A DNA stretch of 64,000 bases. It comes from a virus. How positions within the stretch are numbered: the first letter of the stretch is position 1; each line of letters opens with the position of its first letter. Location of the stretch: IMG/VR virus record IMGVR_UViG_3300034349_000008; one strand, given 5' to 3'. Made by a program: the position numbers and the translations under genes. The notes below the pieces were generated by a model, which saw only the letters and a list, made by a program, of their open reading frames with translations, was not told where the DNA came from and ran no database searches. This document shows, one piece after another, positions 3,061 through 23,736 of this stretch.

Positions 3061-6000
3061 ATGTTAGATTACGAAATTCAAGGTGGTAAAGGTGGTGAGA
3101 AGAAACCCTATACCCCGGTTGAAACACCAAACAACCTGCTATCTGTTGCATATGGTAAAGTACTTATCGCAGTAGCTGAAGGTGAACTCGCTGGAACTCC
3201 ATCACCACAAGATATCTTTCTTGATGGTACACCACTGGCTAACGCTGATGGTTCTCGCAACTTCGGTGGTGTAAAATACGAATGGCGTTCAGGTACTACT
3301 GACCAGACATATATTGCAGGTCTTCCAGAAGTATCTACTGAGTACAACGTTGGTGTTGAACTTAAATTTGGTACTCCTTGGGTTCGTAATATTACAAAAT
3401 CAGAACTTGATGCTATCCGTGTTACTTTCCAATGGCCTGCACTTCTTGAGCAAACCTCAAACGGTGACACTATTGGTACATCTATCGGTTACCAAGTTGA
3501 AATCTCAACGGATGGTGGTGCATTTCAGATATACAACTACTACTCTGTTAGTGGTAAGACAAACACTGCATATGAAAGAACTCATCGTATTGACTTACCT
3601 GAAGCAACAACCGGTTGGAGTGTACGTGTATCAAGAACAACACCAGATCAAACAAGTGGTAACATTCAAGACAACATGAACATTAAGAGTTATGCTGAAG
3701 TGGTTGACGTGAAACAACGTTACCCAAACACTGCATTGCTTTATGTTGAGTTTGACAGTCGTATGTTTGGTGGTGGTGCTATTCCAAGAGTATCGGTTAG
3801 AACGAAAGGACGAATCATCCGCGTCCCAAGTAACTATGAACCAGATATAAGAAGTTATAGTGGTATTTGGAACGGTTCTTTTAAATGGGCTTGGTCTGAT
3901 AACCCTGCTTGGGTCTTCTATGACATCATGACTAATGACCGATTTGGTCTTGGTCATAAAGTTGACTTGAATATGGTTGACAAGTGGGCACTTTATGAAG
4001 TGGCTCAATACTGTGACGTGCTGGTAGATGATGGTAGAGGTGGTGGTGGTAAAGAGCCACGTCACACTTGTAACATCTATATCCAAGAGAAGCAAGAAGC
4101 TTGGCAAGTTTTGCGTGACATCGCTTCGATCTTTAACGGTATGACGTACTGGAACGGTAATCAGTTTACAGCAATTGCTGACAAGCGTGAACCTTTCAAT
4201 AATGCTCCTGTGTTCTCACGATCTAACGTTGTCAATGGTCGATTCGACTATTCTGCTGCGGATGACAAGAGTATTTATACCAGTGCATTGGTAAGCTACG
4301 ATAACCCAGACAACCACTATAATACAGATGTTGAAGCTACATTTGAAACAAGTCAGATTTTAAGATGGGGTGGTGATCGTCAGACTGAGATTAGTGCGAT
4401 TGGTTGTACATCTCGTGGTGAGGCTCAGAGACGCGGTAAGTACACGTTAATCACAAACATGTACAACCGTACTGTTTCATTTAAAACGGGTCTACAAGGA
4501 CTCAGTGAGGACGTTGCACCGGGTAAATTGATCCATGTTGTTGACCCTTTGATTGGTGGTCGTCAATTCACTGGTCGAATCAAGATTTCTGCTGGTCGTG
4601 TTATTACACTTGACCGTGAAATTGATGGTAAACAGGGTGACATCCTTTACATGACACGTTCCAATGGTGTCACTGAAGGTCGTACAATTGAAGCTGTTTC
4701 TGGTAACATCGTAACTGTACAAGTTGCTTACACCGAACAACCTCTACCAAATGCGGTTTGGTATCTTGAAGCTGCTGACCTAAAGTCGCAACTGTTCCGA
4801 GTAACAAAGATAACAAGTCCTGACGATAACGTCTATGAGATTACTGGTGTAGAGTACAACGACAGTAAATATGCGGCAATCGATAACGGTGCACGTCTTG
4901 AACCACGCCCAATAAGTGTAGTTCCACCTAACATTCAACAACCACCTACTAACGTTGTTATCAGTTCTACAACCTTTGTTGAACAGACAATGGCTGTTTC
5001 CACGATGACACTATCTTGGGATCAAACAAAGAATGCTGTAGGGTATGAAGCACAATGGCGTGTTGGTGAAGGTGACTGGGTTAACCTTGGTGTTACAGGC
5101 GCTCTTGAGTTTAACGTAAAAGGTATTTATGCTGGTCAATATGTAGCGCGTGTACGTGCAATTAACGCATATGGTATCAAGTCTATTTGGGCAACAAGTA
5201 TCATCACAACACTTGATGGTAAGGCTGGTAAACCACCCACTGTTACTGCAATTGATACAACACCTATGTTCTTCGGTATTCGTCTTGACTGGTACTTCCC
5301 AGAAGGTGCTGAAGATACTCTACGTACAGAGTTCATGTATAGTGAAACAAACAGTTTCTTTGATGCTATAAAACTTGGTGATTTCTCATACCCAACAAAC
5401 TCACACGAACTTCATGGTTTGTCAGCAGGTAAGAAATTTTGGTTCTGGTGTCGTCTACATGACCGAACTGGTAACATTGGTCCTTGGTTCCCATCTGAAA
5501 CAGGTAATGGTATACAGGGTCAAAGTCAGATCAACGATAGTGGTCAGTATAATGAGTATCTTGCTGGTACTATTTCTGAGACTGCTCTTGACAAAGCACT
5601 GTATGATCGTATAGACTTGATCGATGGAAATGGACCCGGTAGTGTAAACGAAAGACTTGAAGATGCTGTTGCTGATCTTGAAGATAAAATCAATAATGTA
5701 ACAGACGCACTTGTCTACAATCCAGATAAATTGTACGAATCTGGTGATATCGTTCGTCAAGGAAGTAAGCTTTACCAAGCTCAGAAAGATGTACCTCTTA
5801 ACACAACTCCTCCTAATGAGGAATATTGGAAGGATGTAGGTACAATCATAGAACAGAGTAATGCTCTTGCTTCTCAGGTTGCTATCAACACTGCTGACAT
5901 TGAAACTATTGATGGTGTACTTACATCAACAGTTACCTCAATCGAATCTCTACAAGCTGCATACCGTGATGATGACGGTGTTGGTGAAATGGATGATGCC

Positions 6001-18992: not shown

Positions 18993-19329
18993 GGGCAACC
19001 TTGACGTGATGAACGTCTCGCACTGAGAGAGAAATGTCATAACCACTCACCGACTCAGTGTTAAAGGCAAGAAGAAAGCAGGCCAACATAACGTGGAAGT
19101 GATCCCTAACGGGAGCTGGTGCAGCGTTGCGGGTGTCGTCAATGACATTTGTGCACCACGGGAGAAAGGGGTTGACACCTTATCCTATCTCGTGTACCTT
19201 GTGTACATGCCTGATGAATCGGGGTGCTAGAATCGGTGAGCATGAAGATAACTCCTTGGTTTCCGTTTGTGAAACCCTTTAGGGGAAGTCTATCTGTACT
19301 ATCTCAATGAGCATATTAGGAGAAGCTTT

Positions 19330-19545
19330 ATGAAAGCAAGTGATGTATTAAAAGTACAAGTGAAGTGGTTGAAAGAAAGATGTAAATCAATCAAGAAAGA
19401 GATTGACGAAAACAACAAGAATAAGTCAATATGGTACGAAGACTACTATGGTGATAAGCTGAAAGCAGCACTTGATGAATGTGTAGCTATCAAGATTAGC
19501 ACTGAGAAATATATGAAGAAACTGAGGCATCAAGAAAATGAGTAA
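19330..19545 (+). CDS. Hypothetical coiled-coil protein (71 aa)
   Basis: Track ORF. AGGAG 8 nt upstream. First rightward gene. Confidence 0.6.
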
Positions 19546-19822
19546 TGTGTTAAGACAAATGTTCCAAACGATTCAAGCATTGAGTGCTGTAGCTTTGGAG
19601 AGTCATGGTGGCGTCAGTGAAGCAACGCAAAATCTTGAGTATCAAATTGCTTTGCTAGAAGATTTGTTTAAACCAGTTGAAATTACTGCTGATATGGTTA
19701 AAGAGTTGCGTTCATTGACAGGTGAGGGTATGATGTCTTGCCACAAGGCATTAAAGCATTGTTCTGGTGATATGCAAAAAGCAGTTGACTATCTAAGAAG
19801 TTCTGGTACACTCTGTATCTAA
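19538..19822 (+). CDS. Protein with EF-Ts N-terminal (UBA-like) domain look-alike (94 aa)
   Basis: [42 protein letters not shown] aligns with remembered E. coli EF-Ts [42 protein letters not shown]. Confidence 0.6.
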
Positions 19823-19835
19823 TTTAAACATAAAG

Positions 19836-20033
19836 GTGATGTTCATGTTCAGCTTGATATTTTGTCATGTGCTTCTTGTACTATTCAGTGTTTCGATGAT
19901 TGTAGGTTGTGGTTTGATCGCTCGTGGTGTAATCTACTCAAAAATCCTGTCATTGGTTCTAGGTATCTTGACAGTGTGGCAATCACAATATATGATTAGT
20001 GAAATGGTAATTGTGATCAACGAACTTTCGTAA
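19836..20033 (+). CDS. Small two-TMD membrane protein (about 64 aa)
   Basis: Track ORF. Hydrophobic FSLIFCHVLLVLFSVSMIVGCGLI and ILSLVLGILTVW. Confidence 0.5.
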   Translation: MMFMFSLIFCHVLLVLFSVSMIVGCGLIARGVIYSKILSLVLGILTVWQSQYMISEMVIVINELS

Positions 20034-20048
20034 TGAGGAGAAACAAAA

Positions 20049-20390
20049 GTGGCATATCGTAAGCTTGAAATTGGTGATGATGTAAAGATTGTAAAGTGTC
20101 AAGAATGGTCTGGTCAATTCGGTGAAGTTGTAGGTATCGAAGGTCAATACATTAAGGTTCGTTTCAGTTCGTGGCGTGGCGAACCTTCTATGACTCATTA
20201 CTTCACAGAAGATAAGCTTCTTGTTTCTACTGGTAACCCATATCGTAATTACTCATATGAACCAGATGATGACTTTGAAGATTTCGAAGTGCAGACACAA
20301 TATAATGACCAAACGATTCTACAAGCTTTGATTGAACGAGTTTCGAAATTGGAAAAAGAATTGCTTAACATGAAGAGTCAGGCTGCGTAG
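20049..20390 (+). CDS. Hypothetical protein with N-terminal SH3/KOW-like signature (113 aa, GTG start)
   Basis: GAGGAG upstream. LEIGDDVKIVK..GEVVGIEGQYIKVRF pattern. Confidence 0.55.
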   Translation: MAYRKLEIGDDVKIVKCQEWSGQFGEVVGIEGQYIKVRFSSWRGEPSMTHYFTEDKLLVSTGNPYRNYSYEPDDDFEDFEVQTQYNDQTILQALIERVSKLEKELLNMKSQAA

Positions 20391-20418
20391 AATGACAATC
20401 ACACCAAGGGGATATGTA

Positions 20419-20550
20419 ATGCCGTTCGATTACACTGGTTACTACTCTGTTACAGAGCTTGAGCTTCGTCGTCAACAGGAACGTAATGCGCAACGTGAGC
20501 ATGATCTTGAAAAACTTGCTCGTATGAAACGTTTGGAGATTGCAAGTTGA
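20419..20550 (+). CDS. Hypothetical small protein (43 aa)
   Basis: Hand translation MPFDYTGYYSVTELELRRQQERNAQ... Its stop overlaps the TTG start of the next gene. Confidence 0.4.
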   Translation: MPFDYTGYYSVTELELRRQQERNAQREHDLEKLARMKRLEIAS

Positions 20551-20864
20551 AAAAGTTTCTGGTAGTATTGCTGACATCACTTGCTTTATCTGGTTGTGAG
20601 CAGCGTGAAGTGTTTAGTGAAAAGCAGTTGACAATGACAGTTGAGAGTGTCAAACTCACCAGCAAGTCGAACAGCAAGGTTACTCTGCGAGATGATGCAA
20701 GTGGTCAGGTTTACTCTGACAATCGTCTCAGTTGCAACAGAACTCGTGCTAGTCGTGTTGTGATCGGTAGTAAATGGGTTGTAACTGAGGTTACATATGT
20801 GTATCCTGAAAGCAGGCGCTACACAAGTGAACTGGTTGGAACTCGTGGAATTTGCCCACAGTAA
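20547..20864 (+). CDS. Lipoprotein (105 aa, TTG start)
   Basis: MKKFLVVLLTSLALSGCEQ is a signal peptide with canonical lipobox LSGC. GGAG upstream. Confidence 0.7.
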   Translation: MKKFLVVLLTSLALSGCEQREVFSEKQLTMTVESVKLTSKSNSKVTLRDDASGQVYSDNRLSCNRTRASRVVIGSKWVVTEVTYVYPESRRYTSELVGTRGICPQ

Positions 20865-20883
20865 AAATAGTTGAAAATAATGC

Positions 20884-20912
20884 TTGACCACGGTGACCAA
20901 CCTCTGTATAAT
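20884..20912 (+). promoter_or_regulatory. Near-consensus sigma70 promoter (TTGACC-17-TATAAT)
   Basis: TTGACC 20884-89, TATAAT 20907-12. Predicted start lies a few nt before the tRNA-like gene. Confidence 0.65.
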
Positions 20913-20923
20913 GGGCACCACAA

Positions 20924-21025
20924 GACGCGGTGATGGAATTGGTAAACATTGGGGAGCAAGCACTTAACGTTAGTGCCCATACCGCTGGCTTAATTGCCTT
21001 GAGGGTTCGACTCCCTCCTGCGTCA
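20924..21025 (+). tRNA. Atypical 102-nt tRNA-like RNA gene (anticodon not assignable, no encoded CCA)
   Basis: 7-bp acceptor stem GACGCGG/CTGCGTC, U8, D-loop with GG. Canonical T-arm GAGGG-TTCGACT-CCCTC, discriminator A. The central part is about 11 nt too long, with hairpins GCACT-TAACGTT-AGTGC and GGC-TTAATT-GCC. Confidence 0.5.
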
Positions 21026-21052
21026 CTCTTATTTTAAACCAAGGAGAAACAA

Positions 21053-21955
21053 ATGAAACTGACTAACATTTTGAAAGCATCTGCACTGGCTCTTGCTGCA
21101 ACCCTGATGGTTGGCTGTGGTGAACGAGTTGAAGTTCCACCGGGTTTTGTTGGTAAGATCATGACCAAAGATGGTTATCAGGAAGGCATGATTCCAACTT
21201 CGAAACTGCGTCTTCCTGCTTGCTTGAATTACTGTGATCGTCTGGTTGTACTGGATACAACTGACAAGAGCTATGTTGAACCGATGAAGATTTTCATCCC
21301 ATCCGACAAGCTGGTTGTTGATGTTGATCTGCGTGCTACTCTGTCGGTTGATCCACAAAAGGCTGAGGCTCTGTTCAACAAACTACCACAAGCACCGGTT
21401 AACGATTACTATTCGGTAATCAATGGTCAGGCAGTATTTAGTACTTATGGTCAACAGGTTCTGCAAGCTGAAGTTCGTGCATATCTGACTCAGTACACCA
21501 TTTCGGAAATCTCTTCGAGTGGTGAGAAGATCAACGCTGACATTCAGGTTCTTCTTTCCAAGGTTATGAATGAGCGCACTCCATTTACTGTTCGTTATGC
21601 TGGTTTGACGAATATTAAGTACCCTGAAATCATCACTCAGGCTCAAGAGAATAGTGCTAAGCGTCGTGAGATGATTGCACAAGAAGAAGCACAACTTGAG
21701 GTAAGCAAAGTTCAACTGTCTCGTGAACTGCAAGAAGCTAAGATGCAGCGTGCAATCGACAAAGAGAAAGCTGAGACTGAAGCACAAGCACAGATGGTAT
21801 TGGCTAATGCTGTAGATACACGCTCTCTGCGAATCAAAGAGCTTGAGATTCAAAAGATTCTGGCTGAGAAGTGGGATGGTGGTATGCCACAAACTATCAT
21901 GGGTAATGCTAGCGGTATTCCTCAAATGATTATGGACATGCGTGGTAGCAAGTAA
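21053..21955 (+). CDS. SPFH/Band-7 (prohibitin-like) domain lipoprotein (300 aa)
   Basis: Signal peptide with lipobox LMVGCG. SPFH-like core followed by a long Glu/Ala/Gln-rich coiled coil (EEAQLEVSKVQLSRELQEAKMQRAIDKEKAETEAQAQ). AAGGAG upstream. Confidence 0.65.
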   Translation: MKLTNILKASALALAATLMVGCGERVEVPPGFVGKIMTKDGYQEGMIPTSKLRLPACLNYCDRLVVLDTTDKSYVEPMKIFIPSDKLVVDVDLRATLSVDPQKAEALFNKLPQAPVNDYYSVINGQAVFSTYGQQVLQAEVRAYLTQYTISEISSSGEKINADIQVLLSKVMNERTPFTVRYAGLTNIKYPEIITQAQENSAKRREMIAQEEAQLEVSKVQLSRELQEAKMQRAIDKEKAETEAQAQMVLANAVDTRSLRIKELEIQKILAEKWDGGMPQTIMGNASGIPQMIMDMRGSK

Positions 21956-22006
21956 TTGACTTTGGGCTACTGACTATATGCGGTAGCCCTTAATTAAGGA
22001 GATAAA

Positions 22007-22195
22007 ATGAAAGTTGGAACTGTTCTAATTGCAAAGAATAACACTGACGATATGGATGCTGGTGAGGCGTTTGTTGTAAAAAGTGTTAGTGACTTTCACT
22101 TGTATACAAATAAAGAAGATGTTGGTTGCTTCACACTTGAACCAGACCGTAATGGTTTGAGTTGGGAAACATTTTTCACAGTCAAGGAGTTGTAA
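22007..22195 (+). CDS. Hypothetical small protein, SH3-like family candidate (62 aa)
   Basis: Track ORF. AAGGAG upstream. Confidence 0.55.
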   Translation: MKVGTVLIAKNNTDDMDAGEAFVVKSVSDFHLYTNKEDVGCFTLEPDRNGLSWETFFTVKEL

Positions 22196-22539
22196 TGGTT
22201 TTCCTGATTAACTCACTACCTTTCTTCATTGTTATTCTGATGGGATTGGTTATCCGATATGCTGTACCATCGAAAGTTGGTAAAGTGATTTTTGCTGGAC
22301 TTACTGTTCTTATGTTGGTTGTGTATTTTCAAATCCAACCTAGTTACATGCCGAAGGGAACTGTGAAAACACTCCCGAACGCTGAGTTCAGAACAGTCGA
22401 TAAACCAGTTTCTGATCTAGTTCCAAAACCAAAGTCACCTGAGCAGTATGATACTGAGCGTAATGCTGCGATGGATGATATTGATCGTAAGCTTGAAGAA
22501 CAAATTATTAAACATCAAATGAAATATTATAAGGAGTAA
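22195..22539 (+). CDS. Two-TMD membrane protein (114 aa)
   Basis: ATG 22195 overlaps the upstream stop (TAATG) and follows AAGGAG. MVFLINSLPFFIVILMGLVI and VIFAGLTVLMLVVYF. Confidence 0.6.
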   Translation: MVFLINSLPFFIVILMGLVIRYAVPSKVGKVIFAGLTVLMLVVYFQIQPSYMPKGTVKTLPNAEFRTVDKPVSDLVPKPKSPEQYDTERNAAMDDIDRKLEEQIIKHQMKYYKE

Positions 22540-22543
22540 AAAG

Positions 22544-22672
22544 ATGTCCAAAGTATTTTACGAGCAAGCAAACCCACAAGGCACCACCCAGACTGCCGGT
22601 CACAAAGCTTTCAAAGTAGCTGCACCGAAGAGTCGTAAACGCGGTCGCGGTTACATCCAAGTAAGTCAGTAA
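22544..22672 (+). CDS. Small basic protein with RGR (AT-hook-like) motif (42 aa)
   Basis: Hand translation MSKVFYEQANPQGTTQTAGHKAFKVAAPKSRKRGRGYIQVSQ. AAGGAG 7 nt upstream. A strong terminator follows. Confidence 0.5.
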   Translation: MSKVFYEQANPQGTTQTAGHKAFKVAAPKSRKRGRGYIQVSQ

Positions 22673-22678
22673 TAGAGA

Positions 22679-22703
22679 GCCCCGCCATAGAGCGGGGCTT
22701 TTT
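22679..22703 (+). terminator. Rho-independent terminator
   Basis: GCCCCGC/GCGGGGC 7-bp stem followed by TTTTT. Confidence 0.8.
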
Positions 22704-22721
22704 AATGCCTGTGAAAAGGTG

Positions 22722-22750
22722 TTGACAGACATGAACACTCGGTGTAGAAT
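22722..22750 (+). promoter_or_regulatory. Sigma70 promoter (TTGACA-17-TAGAAT)
   Basis: TTGACA 22722-27, TAGAAT 22745-50. Confidence 0.6.
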
Positions 22751-22781
22751 GGACGCTCAATCAATGAGAGGAGAATCAAAG

Positions 22782-23105
22782 GTGAAAAAGTTTGTAATAG
22801 GTGCTGCATTTGCTATTTTCGGATTGTCTATGGTCAATGCTCAAGCTGTTGAGAATAGCTTCTGCAATATGGAATATGAAAAGGCTTACAACATTATGAA
22901 ATTGCGTCAATATGGTACTGAAAAGGCTGTTGTTGAATCTGTGATCTACACTGAATCCGGTCAGATCATGGTTGAACTTGCTTATGACAAGGAAATTGTT
23001 CCAGACCGAGTGAAACCTATTGTCATGAAGACATTCGCAAACCGTTTCAAAATCATCTGTGAGCAGTCGTTCGCTGAATCCAAGCAGAAAAGTATTGCAT
23101 TTTAA
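22782..23105 (+). CDS. Secreted/periplasmic protein (107 aa, GTG start)
   Basis: GAGGAG upstream of GTG. MKKFVIGAAFAIFGLSMVNAQA signal peptide with AQA cleavage motif. Confidence 0.6.
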   Translation: MKKFVIGAAFAIFGLSMVNAQAVENSFCNMEYEKAYNIMKLRQYGTEKAVVESVIYTESGQIMVELAYDKEIVPDRVKPIVMKTFANRFKIICEQSFAESKQKSIAF

Positions 23106-23150
23106 TCTGGTAGGTGTATAGTACCTGAAACCAAACACTGGAATCACAGC

Positions 23151-23333
23151 ATGAACACTGAAGAAATCATCGAAGCGTTTGAGGAATGGTACGTAGGAGA
23201 GTACGTGATCCGTTCTGGGGCGTATGGTCGTGCTAGTCGCAACCTGACAAAGCATGACGGTCAGTACATCTCAGATCACGCAGCAGAGTGCTTCAAGGTG
23301 TGGTGTGCAGCTATCAAGAGGATGCGTAAATGA
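23151..23333 (+). CDS. Hypothetical protein (60 aa)
   Basis: Track ORF. No clear SD. Confidence 0.45.
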   Translation: MNTEEIIEAFEEWYVGEYVIRSGAYGRASRNLTKHDGQYISDHAAECFKVWCAAIKRMRK

Positions 23334-23482
23334 AGTGGGAATTGGAGTGGATCGATGACAACATACACCTTTACACATCACCTGAACATGCTGAAGCGGT
23401 GAAACGTAATATCGAGAAGCGGTACAAGATTCTATCCCTTGAAGCACGCATAAAAGAATTGGAAAAGGAGCTTGGTAAATGA
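23330..23482 (+). CDS. Hypothetical small protein (50 aa)
   Basis: Hand translation MKWELEWIDDNIHLYTSPEHAEAVKRN... ATGA overlaps at both ends. Confidence 0.45.
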   Translation: MKWELEWIDDNIHLYTSPEHAEAVKRNIEKRYKILSLEARIKELEKELGK

Positions 23483-23736
23483 AATACGTAGTCACGAAAG
23501 ATGAAAACGGTGTAGAAGAACTATTCATGTTTCCAAAGTCTGTGGATCATGACGTTTTCGCTAACGCTGTAAGTCGATTGAAAAATCAGGCGCATGGTAA
23601 TTGGGAACGAATTGACCGTGATGTTATCGCTGCTGGATTCGTCACAACAAAACAAGATGGTGTATTTTGCTTCGGTCGCAGTGAAACCCTTAACCTAAAC
23701 TCACGTGGGCGTCTTGATGAGATGTTAATCGTATGA
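23479..23736 (+). CDS. Hypothetical protein (85 aa)
   Basis: Track ORF coupled to its neighbours. Confidence 0.55.
   Translation: MKYVVTKDENGVEELFMFPKSVDHDVFANAVSRLKNQAHGNWERIDRDVIAAGFVTTKQDGVFCFGRSETLNLNSRGRLDEMLIV

What the first reader, a model, noticed from the sequence alone, without database searches (positions are those of the whole stretch)
20884..21025. Oversized 102-nt tRNA-like RNA with its own consensus promoter and no assignable anticodon
A near-consensus promoter (TTGACC-17-TATAAT) would start transcription 4-5 nt before an RNA with textbook tRNA ends. These are a 7-bp acceptor stem (GACGCGG/CTGCGTC, one G-U), U8, a GG-containing D-loop, a canonical T-arm GAGGG-UUCGACU-CCCUC and discriminator A. 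No CCA is encoded.

The segment between the D-arm and T-arm is about 50 nt, against at most about 39 even for class II tRNAs. The best anticodon-like hairpin (GCACU-UAACGUU-AGUGC) has A instead of the near-universal U33 and U instead of a purine at position 37. So it is either a tRNA with an insertion, a decoding-incompetent tRNA mimic, or a stable tRNA-like RNA such as those in the T4 tRNA cluster.

It is wedged between a lipoprotein gene and an SPFH lipoprotein gene. tRNA mimics could act as decoys for anticodon nucleases or as substrates for CCA-adding enzyme or RNase P.
Basis: partly seen in the sequence, partly recalled or inferred. Interest (0 to 1): 0.6.

Follow-up and report, generated by a model that had tools for sequence, protein, structure and literature searches.

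The report
Non-decoding leucine-tRNA look-alike in phage
This phage makes, from a strong early promoter, a 102-base RNA with the complete outer frame of a leucine tRNA but a long rigid arm where the anticodon should be. It belongs to a conserved, little-studied group of phage tRNA look-alikes (like phage T5 "RNA1") that almost certainly do not read codons and whose job is unknown.

Summary
Window 20924-21025 (+) encodes a 102-nt RNA with a 7-bp acceptor stem, U8, a tRNA-Leu-type D arm, a canonical T arm and discriminator A. It sits behind an 11/12 sigma-70 promoter (20884-20912). ARAGORN, with or without introns, and Rfam find no tRNA.

It is not a one-off. Eight homologues were found: Pseudomonas phage Pyxpy01, one metagenome contig and six IMG/VR relatives. 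In the tRNA frame, 13 of 15 pairs show compensatory changes.

Conservation is crossed:
- Close relatives keep the same body at the same locus but carry unrelated centres of 32-111 nt.
- Three unrelated bodies carry the same core, GGGGAGCAAGC-hairpin-GCCCAUACCGC (23/24 invariant), under a freely varying cap (GAAA, GCAA or 7 nt).

So the "anticodon hairpin" is the tip of a long irregular arm, not an anticodon arm. The determinants reported for E. coli LeuRS are kept (A73, A14, A15:U48, G18G19).

In the window and two relatives the RNA lies between an early promoter and the SPFH gene's ribosome-binding site.

The closest described relative is phage T5 RNA1, a "tRNA-like stable RNA with unknown functions". 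Earlier notes of this scan report similar tRNA-Leu-bodied RNAs on other DNA.

Verdict: a real, selected, non-decoding tRNA-Leu mimic. It is a new variant of a known but unexplained kind.

The parts
20884..20912 (+). Sigma-70-type early promoter: TTGACC, 17-nt spacer, TATAAT.
   Evidence: Scores 11/12 in the consensus scan. Orthologous promoters stand in front of the homologous RNAs in L032, L048, L040 and L047. In relatives that lack the RNA, a promoter stands directly in front of the SPFH gene.
20924..21025 (+). The tRNA-Leu-shaped, non-decoding RNA: 102 nt from the first acceptor base to discriminator A.
   Evidence: Sequence read. The covariance model scores it 99 bits.
20924..20930 (+). 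Acceptor stem, 5' strand (GACGCGG). It pairs with 21018-21024.
   Evidence: All 7 pairs show compensatory changes across the 9 members, with 96.8% of cells paired.
20933..20949 (+). D arm: 3-bp stem (AUG/CAU) and loop GAAUUGGUAAA, carrying A14, A15 and G18G19. This is the class-II tRNA-Leu type.
   Evidence: The 18-nt motif TGATGGAATTGGTARACA marks mostly tRNA-Leu genes in IMG/VR: 77 of 98 delimited hits. T5 RNA1 has the same D loop.
20951..20985 (+). Replacement arm at the anticodon-arm position.

- Base helix: G28-G31 with C59-C62.
- 5x5 internal loop: AGCAA opposite CCAUA.
- Distal helix GCACU/AGUGC (20960-20964 with 20972-20976).
- 7-nt cap UAACGUU (20965-20971).
   Evidence: The core is 23/24 invariant in three lineages whose acceptor stems share only 2/14 positions. 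The distal stem covaries: GCAC/GUGC against GCCUGC/GUAGGC. The strands align without gaps to the L047, L029 and L048 arms, with a G-C to C-G swap at pair 28-62. RNAfold gives the same architecture.
20987..20998 (+). Variable-arm hairpin GGC-UUAAUU-GCC, at the class-II position. U48 follows at 21000.
   Evidence: Homologues have GNRA-capped hairpins here: GAAA in Pyxpy01 and L029, GUAA in L032. L017 has only 9 nt. A U immediately precedes the T stem in all 9 members, read from the sequences.
21001..21017 (+). T arm: GAGGG-UUCGACU-CCCUC.
   Evidence: 100% paired across the family, with 3 of 5 pairs changed on both sides. It matches the tmRNA T arm in Rfam at E 0.0011.
21018..21025 (+). Acceptor stem 3' strand (CUGCGUC) plus discriminator A. 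No CCA is encoded; CUC follows.
   Evidence: Sequence. The discriminator is A in 8 of 9 members. No phage CCA-adding enzyme was detected.
21026..21052 (+). AU-rich trailer and Shine-Dalgarno sequence (AAGGAG) of the SPFH gene. There is no terminator.
   Evidence: No plus-strand terminator-like site was found in 19000-23500. Sequence.
21053..21955 (+). SPFH/Band-7 lipoprotein gene, probably co-transcribed with the RNA.
   Evidence: Pfam Band_7, E 9.5e-9. Homologues in 20 IMG/VR loci.

Best explanation
The locus encodes a non-decoding, tRNA-Leu-shaped stable RNA of the same kind as phage T5 RNA1.

Shown:
- It has a strong host-type early promoter.
- The tRNA frame (acceptor, D and T arms) is under selection.
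- In place of the anticodon arm there is a long irregular helix. Its internal-loop core is conserved, while its cap is free to vary.
- The design is modular: the same body carries different centres, and the same centre sits on different bodies.
- The RNA lies in the 5' leader of the SPFH early transcript.

Inferred:
- The host treats it as a pre-tRNA. RNase P would remove the leader of a few nucleotides. Host 3' enzymes would trim the AU-rich trailer, releasing the SPFH mRNA. The host CCA enzyme would add CCA.
- Because it keeps the determinants reported for E. coli LeuRS, none of which lie in the anticodon, it can probably be charged with leucine.
- Its arm is roughly twice the normal length and has no U33/purine-37 loop, so it cannot pair with a codon in the ribosome.
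- It would therefore act in trans as a nuclease-resistant tRNA mimic. The frame supplies processing, stability and entry into tRNA-binding machinery. The replaced arm is a specific binding module for a partner not yet identified.
- Given the fast module turnover among close relatives, that partner is most plausibly a component of the host-phage conflict.
For: Frame under selection:
- 13 of 15 frame pairs change on both sides and 95.6% of cells are paired, against at most 53% in the slid controls.
- The body is 80-96% identical among the SPFH-locus relatives, while the neighbouring gene is 67-80% identical and the centres only 35-55%.

Arm core under selection:
- The core is 23/24 invariant in window, Pyxpy01 and L017. 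Their acceptor stems share 2/14 positions and their D arms 6/17.
- The distal stem covaries and the caps differ: 7 nt, GAAA, GCAA.
- The arm strands align without gaps to those of L047, L029 and L048. Pair 28-62 swaps G-C to C-G, and 30-60 changes G-C to G-U.

Not a decoder:
- ARAGORN and Rfam are negative. Intron mode gives nothing for the window, and lowered thresholds give inconsistent anticodons across the family.

Expression signals:
- An 11/12 promoter and no terminator before the SPFH gene.
- Every homologue has its own TTGACA-type promoter.
- Relatives without the RNA keep the promoter about 60 nt before the ATG.

Leucine identity:
- The D-arm motif is typical of tRNA-Leu.
- A73 is present in 8 of 9 members, and A15 and U48 in all 9. 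U8, A14, G18G19 and U54/U55/C56/A58 are present in the window RNA and its SPFH-locus relatives.
- According to the review PMC9976931, E. coli LeuRS needs A73 and the D/T hinge but neither the anticodon nor the variable arm, and truncated tRNA-Leu remains active.

Precedents:
- T5 RNA1 is an annotated stable tRNA-like RNA with the same D loop. The family model hits it at 25 bits, E 3e-5.
- Engineered tRNA scaffolds with the anticodon arm replaced are processed and accumulate in E. coli (PMC3753655).

Other:
- The phage encodes no CCA-adding enzyme and no tRNA-Leu of its own.
Against: - There is no direct evidence that the RNA accumulates, is processed, receives CCA or is charged. The only RNA-library data are assembled contigs, which cannot show ends or strand.
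- The partner of the arm is unknown. No gene co-varies with the RNA in the loci examined; the nearby EF-Ts-N gene does not.
- The conserved core has no sequence variation, so its 5x5-loop fold is not proven. An alternative fold, with GGG pairing CCC and a 6-nt bulge, is not excluded.
- The folding energy is not better than that of shuffles.
- A73 and the hinge bases could be retained from a tRNA-Leu ancestor, or for RNase P and elbow recognition, rather than for charging.
- Its position in an mRNA leader also fits a cis role.
Confidence: 0.5

Rival explanations
1. A cis-acting leader element. On this view the tRNA-shaped fold exists mainly to be cut by RNase P and 3' tRNA-processing enzymes, or to cap the 5' end. 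That would set the 5' end, stability or translation of the downstream early mRNA (here SPFH). It would be a tRNA 'punctuation' signal, and the excised RNA would be a by-product.
For: - In the window, L032 and L040 the RNA lies exactly between the promoter and the SD of the SPFH gene, with no terminator.
- In Pyxpy01 it lies between a promoter shared with the KIL phages and the next ORF.
- The centres are hypervariable, as expected if only the frame mattered.
Against: - The arm core is 23/24 invariant across three lineages that have different downstream genes.
- In L029 a second promoter lies between the RNA and the SPFH gene. In L047 about 730 nt separate them, and in L048 about 150 nt.
- In L017 more tRNA-like elements follow, not an ORF.
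- The leucine determinants A73 and A15:U48, which are not established RNase P requirements (my recollection), are kept.
- T5 RNA1 accumulates as a stable RNA according to its annotation.
Confidence: 0.2
2. A specific decoy for host toxins or defence enzymes that attack tRNA independently of the anticodon. Examples are enzymes that modify or cut the CCA end, the acceptor stem or the aminoacyl group. This is a narrower version of the main explanation. The sealed arm would only ensure that the decoy cannot disturb decoding.
For: - The frame and the acceptor-end features are conserved.
- LeuRS determinants are kept, so an aminoacylated mimic is possible.
- The RNA is present in some close relatives and absent in others, like an accessory counter-defence gene.
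Against: - A pure acceptor-end decoy needs no conserved arm core. It also needs no elaborate conserved modules such as the 12-nt loop UA(C/A)GGUGACAGU shared by L029, L032 and L048.
- No such host system is identified here.
Confidence: 0.15
3. A true decoding tRNA with an unconventional anticodon arm, or one carrying a small intervening sequence that is removed to give a normal tRNA-Leu.
For: - The body is of tRNA-Leu type, and the phage has 8 tRNAs but no tRNA-Leu.
- At the same locus, L040 carries an 83-nt form with a 4-bp stem and a 7-nt loop CUAAUAC.
- The 5' strand GGGGA equals the anticodon-stem strand of a normal phage tRNA-Leu(UAA) seen in L121.
Against: - There is no complementary 3' strand (UCCCC) and no 5-bp stem flanking any removable segment.
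- ARAGORN in intron mode finds nothing in the window, and relaxed calls give a different 'anticodon' in every member.
- The caps are GNRA tetraloops in two members.
- By recollection, bacteria splice tRNAs only through group I introns of about 200 nt or more.
Confidence: 0.05
4. A decaying tRNA-Leu pseudogene carried along behind a promoter, with no function of its own.
For: - The centres differ greatly among relatives, and some relatives lack the element.
- The folding energy is unremarkable.
Against: - Compensatory changes keep all frame helices intact.
- The body is more conserved than the adjacent protein gene.
- The core is invariant across distant lineages.
- A related strain in run X4 shows few differences across the part of the RNA its contig covers, and many just downstream. 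This is weak, contig-level evidence.
Confidence: 0.04

Closest known systems
Phage T5 RNA1 (AY543070 30501-30644; also RNA2), annotated 'tRNA-like stable RNA with unknown functions'
   Same: - A phage-encoded, oversized RNA (144 nt as annotated) with an acceptor stem, a T arm and the same tRNA-Leu-type D loop GGAAUUGGUAGAC.
- An expanded structured centre in place of a normal anticodon arm.
- The family model R1 hits it at 25.3 bits, E 3e-5.
   Different: - T5 RNA1 lies inside the tRNA gene cluster. It is not behind its own promoter in an mRNA leader.
- Its centre shares no motif with the GGGGAG...UACC core.
- Its discriminator looks like U.
- It comes from a different phage group, on E. coli.
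Phage T4 stable RNAs species 1 and 2 (rnaC, rnaD)
   Same: Small stable phage RNAs of unknown function, encoded next to the tRNA genes. rnaC ends in a tRNA-type T arm.
   Different: - There is no tRNA-Leu-type D arm, and the family model does not hit them.
- They lie in the tRNA cluster.
Engineered 'tRNA scaffold' chimeras (Ponchon and Dardel; PMC3753655)
   Same: The acceptor, D and T arms are kept, and the anticodon stem-loop is replaced by a structured insert. In E. coli such RNAs are recognised by cellular factors, processed precisely and protected from degradation.
   Different: - They are man-made, and their body is human tRNA-Lys3.
- Here the design is natural, on a tRNA-Leu body, with conserved native modules.
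Canonical class-II tRNA-Leu (Rfam RF00005)
   Same: A 7-bp acceptor stem, U8, a 3-bp D stem with the GGAAUUGGUA loop, a variable-arm hairpin, a T arm and A73.
   Different: - There is no 5-bp anticodon stem with a 7-nt U33/R37 loop, and no anticodon.
- The window RNA is below the Rfam tRNA threshold. L017 alone reaches 35 bits.
Anticodon-less or oversized tRNA(-Leu) look-alikes noted earlier by this scan in other phages (e1-5410566, e1-5327330, e1-5344934, e1-4588216)
   Same: A fixed tRNA-Leu frame with a hypervariable or sealed centre. Different middles are swapped into the same spot in related viruses.
   Different: - Those are AI notes on other genomes, and only partly checked here.
- This case adds an mRNA-leader position, an arm core shared across unrelated bodies, and a cultured phage (Pyxpy01) that carries it.

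Membership tests
Canonical tRNA (RF00005) | Acceptor stem of 7 bp, a D arm with G18G19, and a T arm with the UUCRA loop. | tested here: met
   Sequence; covariation.
Canonical tRNA (RF00005) | A 5-bp anticodon stem closing a 7-nt loop with U33, a 3-nt anticodon and a purine at position 37. | tested here: not met
   - ARAGORN finds nothing, with or without introns.
- No Rfam tRNA hit even at E<=10.
- The cap is a GNRA tetraloop in two homologues.
Canonical tRNA (RF00005) | Score at or above the Rfam gathering threshold (29 bits). | tested here: not met
   The window RNA has no hit. Among homologues, L017 scores 35.3 bits and L029 26.4 bits, and the other homologues scanned there (L004, L032, L037, L040, L047, L048) have no hit.
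tmRNA | A tRNA-like domain plus a tag-peptide reading frame and pseudoknots, about 300-400 nt. | tested here: not met
   ARAGORN finds no tmRNA. Only the 17-nt T arm matches RF00023. The RNA is 102 nt.
T5 RNA1-type tRNA-like stable RNA | Phage-encoded, with a tRNA-Leu-type acceptor/D/T frame and an oversized non-anticodon centre. | tested here: met
   T5 RNA1 was read. It has the same D loop and is hit by model R1.
T5 RNA1-type tRNA-like stable RNA | Accumulates as a discrete stable RNA in infected cells. | not testable with these tools
   Only contigs of a metatranscriptome run cover the locus. They cannot show ends or abundance.
Substrate of bacterial LeuRS (leucine identity, E. coli rules) | A73, U8:A14, the A15:U48 trans-Levitt pair, G18G19, and the D/T-loop contacts G18:U55, G19:C56 and U54:A58. 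The anticodon and variable arm are dispensable. | tested here: met
   All of these bases are present in the window RNA. Across the family, A73 is present in 8/9 and A15 and U48 in 9/9. The rules are taken from PMC9976931. Actual charging was not tested.
Y RNA / YrlA (Ro60-associated tRNA-like RNA) | A Ro-binding stem formed by the RNA termini, with a linked rsr/rtcB context. | tested here: not met
   No Rfam match. The termini form an acceptor stem. A scan for an Rnl2-type RNA ligase in the genome gave only a weak sub-threshold match.
PTH2-linked anticodon-less tRNA mimics (earlier scan notes) | tRNA mimics located directly behind a peptidyl-tRNA-hydrolase-2-like gene. | tested here: not met
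   No PF01981 match anywhere in the 103.8-kb phage genome.

The most novel reading that the evidence does not exclude
Phages may use a ribosome-inert, LeuRS-chargeable tRNA-Leu chassis as a natural 'tRNA scaffold'. It would display exchangeable effector RNA modules, such as protein sponges, decoys or aptamers. The modules would be swapped as cassettes between phage lineages and inserted behind early promoters, forming a modular RNA-based layer of host takeover or counter-defence. The GGGGAGCAA/CCAUACC core would be one such portable module with a specific host or phage partner.
Probability: 0.25. Interest if true: 0.8.

Novelty: new variant of a known kind. Interest (0 to 1): 0.55.

Why it matters
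Tail-phage 'tRNA-like stable RNAs' are annotated in the T4 and T5 genome records as stable RNAs, in T5 explicitly with unknown functions. They are absent from Rfam and from standard annotation.

This case adds three things:
- The kind extends to roughly 100-kb Pseudomonas-type phages.
- Conservation is crossed: the frame is kept while modules change, and one module is kept while frames change. That is what one expects if frame and arm have separate jobs.
- The frame retains exactly the features LeuRS needs. The choice of a leucine body may be no accident, because LeuRS ignores the anticodon.

One member sits in a cultured phage, Pyxpy01 on Pseudomonas syringae, so accumulation, CCA addition, charging, binding partners and deletion phenotypes can all be tested directly.

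If the modules prove to be exchangeable effectors, this would be a natural counterpart of the engineered tRNA scaffold and a new class of phage regulatory or counter-defence RNA.

Tried and rejected
- **Exact-pattern scans for the arm core.** Three scans of IMG/VR that required the 5' core found no member: the two two-sided patterns and the D-arm plus 5' core pattern. The 3'-half pattern gave only ordinary tRNAs and chance hits. The metagenome scan gave 13 sites, of which only L017 is real. The bacterial-genome scan gave 13 sites, all chance. One of these, L180, looked promising but lies antisense inside a dehydrogenase-like ORF.
- **Further relatives.** The hp2/T-arm pattern found only L047 again. 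A search with the ORF downstream of the Pyxpy01 RNA found no relatives. BLAST of the L048 and L037 RNAs against GenBank phages found nothing. BLAST against E. coli genomes found nothing.
- **Rfam on the homologues.** No family explains the central modules.
- **Link to the EF-Ts-N mini-protein gene, 1.1 kb upstream.** That gene occurs in loci with and without the RNA, and is missing locally from two loci that have it. No association.
- **RNA-processing genes in the phage.** No PTH2, no CCA-adding enzyme, and only a weak ligase-like hit.
- **Antisense targets of the core in the phage genome.** None at one mismatch or fewer.
- **Motif ideas examined by reading the sequence and dropped.** Hammerhead: CUGAUGA is present in L032 but there is no GAAA after stem II. 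Canonical K-turn: there is no 3-nt bulge, since the loops are symmetric. An anticodon CAU in CCCAUAC: the flanking pairs are not conserved in L017. CsrA/RsmA sites: GGU instead of GGA in the conserved loop.
- **Sequencing runs.** A peat metatranscriptome run (X2) holds the region, but only as contigs, so it shows neither transcription, ends nor level. One of its contigs skips 20889-21095, probably a variant strain.
- **T4 rnaC and rnaD** are not hit by the family model.

Full report
**1. The observation.**

It has a 7-bp acceptor stem GACGCGG/CUGCGUC with one G-U, then U8. The D arm has a 3-bp stem and the loop GAAUUGGUAAA. The T arm is GAGGG-UUCGACU-CCCUC, and the discriminator is A. No CCA is encoded, and 51 nt separate the D and T arms.

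The promoter TTGACC-17-TATAAT (20884-20912) scores 11/12. The flanking genes are a lipoprotein with lipobox LALSGC and a Band_7/SPFH lipoprotein.

Standard detectors are negative:
- ARAGORN finds no tRNA or tmRNA in the window, and none for this RNA when introns are allowed.
- Rfam gives nothing at gathering scores. At E<=10, the only hit on the RNA in its own orientation with E below 1 is the 17-nt T arm matching the tmRNA model.
- The predicted folding energy is no better than that of shuffles (z = -0.47). This is not informative.

**2. It is a conserved gene family, not a chance cloverleaf.**

The window is part of a 103.8-kb IMG/VR phage record. The phage is related to Pseudomonas phages vB_PpS_SYP, Ep020 and vB_PseuGesM_254.

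Homologues came from three sources:
- BLAST found one in Pseudomonas phage Pyxpy01/02. It is unannotated and sits behind its own TTGACA-17-TACAAT promoter.
- A pattern scan of metagenomes found a third member, L017.
- A covariance model of these three (R1) found six more next to the SPFH homologue of related IMG/VR phages: L047, L032, L029, L037, L040 and L048. Each has a consensus promoter of its own. ARAGORN calls none of them.

Over the nine sequences, the acceptor, D and T helices are 95.6% paired. 13 of 15 pairs change on both sides. Sliding the partners by 1-3 columns drops pairing to 40-53%.

**3. The body is a leucine-tRNA body.**

- The 5' and 3' halves hit annotated tRNA-Leu genes of many phages.
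- The 18-nt D-arm motif TGATGGAATTGGTARACA marks tRNA-Leu in 77 of 98 delimited IMG/VR hits.
- The hairpin before the T arm sits at the class-II variable-arm position.

**4. What replaces the anticodon arm.**

In the window RNA, Pyxpy01 and L017 the segment reads N-GGGGAGCAAGC-[stem-cap-stem]-GCCCAUACCGC.
- The distal stem covaries: GCACU/AGUGC, GCAC/GUGC and GCCUGC/GUAGGC.
- The cap is UAACGUU, GAAA or GCAA.
- The flanking core is invariant at 23 of 24 positions. In the same three RNAs only 2 of 14 acceptor positions and 6 of 17 D-arm positions are invariant.

Read strand against strand, the arm has the following layers:
- a base helix: 28-62, 29·61 (a G·G mismatch), 30-60 and 31-59;
- a symmetric 5x5 internal loop: A·A, G·U, C·A, A·C, A·C;
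- the distal helix.

L047, L029 and L048 align to this without gaps. They share the first six layers; 28-62 swaps G-C to C-G, and 30-60 changes G-C to G·U. They then carry G·A, A·G, U·U instead, which is a tandem-GA loop. RNAfold returns the same architecture.

Because the core never varies, the 5x5 fold is inferred. A fold with GGG pairing CCC and a 6-nt bulge is not excluded.

The arm has about 13-15 stacked layers, against 5 bp plus a loop in a tRNA. It also lacks U33 and a purine at 37. It cannot place an anticodon in the decoding centre; this step is inference from tRNA geometry.

**5. Crossed conservation shows a modular design.**

- Against the window RNA, the six SPFH-locus relatives keep the frame: 85-88% identity in the 5' part and 69-96% in the 3' part.
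- Their centres are unrelated (35-55% identity, 32-111 nt). The adjacent SPFH gene is 67-80% identical.
- Conversely, Pyxpy01 and L017 have diverged frames but the same core.
- Other modules also recur. L029, L032 and L048 share the 12-nt loop UA(C/A)GGUGACAGU on different stems. L048 carries a second module at the variable-arm position.

**6. Genomic setting.**

Relatives without the RNA (L030, L031, L035, SYP) have a promoter 59-67 nt before the SPFH start codon. In the window, L032 and L040 the RNA is inserted between such a promoter and the Shine-Dalgarno sequence, with the promoter at -169, -186 and -151. No terminator-like site follows the RNA.

In Pyxpy01 the RNA follows a promoter that the KIL phages also have, without the RNA. 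Whole-genome model searches confirm that L030 and L031 lack the element.

The RNA is therefore an accessory cassette in early-mRNA leaders. In the window, L032 and L040 it is probably co-transcribed with SPFH, and then needs 5' and 3' processing to be released.

The phage has eight normal tRNAs, none of them Leu. It has no CCA-adding enzyme and no PTH2.

**7. Can it be charged?**

According to the review PMC9976931:
- E. coli LeuRS depends on A73 and on the hinge: A15:U48, G18G19, A20a, G18:U55, G19:C56 and U54:A58.
- U8:A14 is cited there for LeuRS of Aquifex aeolicus.

The window RNA has all of these bases. Across the nine members, A73 is present in eight, and A15 and U48 in all nine. Leucylation is thus plausible, but it has not been tested.

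**8. Known relatives.**

I checked the record. T5 RNA1 (AY543070 30501-30644) is annotated 'tRNA-like stable RNA with unknown functions'. It has the D loop GGAAUUGGUAGAC, an acceptor stem, a T arm and an expanded centre, and model R1 hits it at 25 bits.

T4 rnaC and rnaD are stable RNAs of unknown function, but the model does not hit them.

The engineered tRNA scaffold shows that replacing the anticodon stem-loop of a tRNA by a structured insert gives precisely processed, stable RNA in E. coli (PMC3753655).

Earlier scan notes describe comparable tRNA-Leu-framed RNAs with hypervariable centres in other phages. So this class has been seen before by the scan on other DNA.

**9. Expression data.**

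A peat metatranscriptome run holds the region, but only as assembled contigs. That cannot show transcription, ends or level.

A related strain in a DNA run (X4) shows 4 differences over 20778-21002, which covers most of the RNA, and 16 over 21001-21170. This is weakly consistent with constraint on the RNA.

**10. Verdict.**

The locus encodes a real, selected, non-decoding tRNA-Leu mimic of the T5 RNA1 kind. Its frame most likely provides host processing, stability and possibly leucylation. Its arm is a specific, exchangeable module.

The biological role is still unknown. It could be a trans-acting decoy or sponge, which I favour, or a cis leader element. Pyxpy01 offers a cultured system in which to find out.

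Noticed in passing
Own genome G000:C1:100772-100894 (outside the window; L051 about 1496-1618): A second oversized tRNA-like RNA of 123 nt lies inside the phage's tRNA cluster, between tRNA-Asn and tRNA-Thr. It has a 6-bp acceptor stem, the T arm AGUUGG-UUCGAUU-CCAACU and discriminator A followed by an encoded CCA. It has no recognisable D arm, and its centre is long and branched. ARAGORN does not call it.
   Followed up: partly
L017:1050-1228 (- strand): Downstream of the L017 family member lie at least two more tRNA-shaped elements. They have good T arms and acceptor stems but disrupted anticodon regions. One contains GAGCAAAC, reminiscent of the core. ARAGORN calls none of them.
   Followed up: no
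L040:3891-3973: The orthologous locus of a more distant relative (SPFH 55% identical) carries an 83-nt version. It has a 4-bp stem, a 7-nt loop CUAAUAC, one acceptor mismatch and discriminator U. It may be a near-canonical or recently degenerated tRNA. That hints that the locus began as a class-II tRNA gene.
   Followed up: partly
L076:3601-3816, L110:2855-3070, L085:1967-2151, L144:4854-4987, L135:2803-2909: Unrelated IMG/VR phages carry RNAs of 107-216 nt with the same tRNA-Leu D-arm motif, acceptor stem and T arm, and large inserts. In L076 and L110 the insert is flanked by a plausible anticodon stem (GAAGU...ACUUC), so it may be an intron.
   Followed up: no
L121:5788-5878: A tRNA-Leu-like gene with a 5-bp anticodon stem (ACCCC/GGGGU) but a 6-nt loop UUAGUC. 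ARAGORN reports a two-base 'anticodon'. It lies next to a normal tRNA-Leu(UAA).
   Followed up: no
window 19538-19822: A 94-aa early protein has a weak EF-Ts N-terminal domain match (PF25025, E 3e-4, below the cut-off). Homologues occur in relatives with and without the tRNA-like RNA, so no link to it was found.
   Followed up: partly
window 20889-21095 (run X2): One contig of the peat metatranscriptome run joins 20889 directly to 21095. This is probably a co-occurring variant phage in which the tRNA-like cassette is absent or replaced.
   Followed up: no
L008 about 4308-4336 (- strand): A phage tRNA(CAU) whose anticodon loop reads CCCAUAC, with C instead of the near-universal U33.
   Followed up: no
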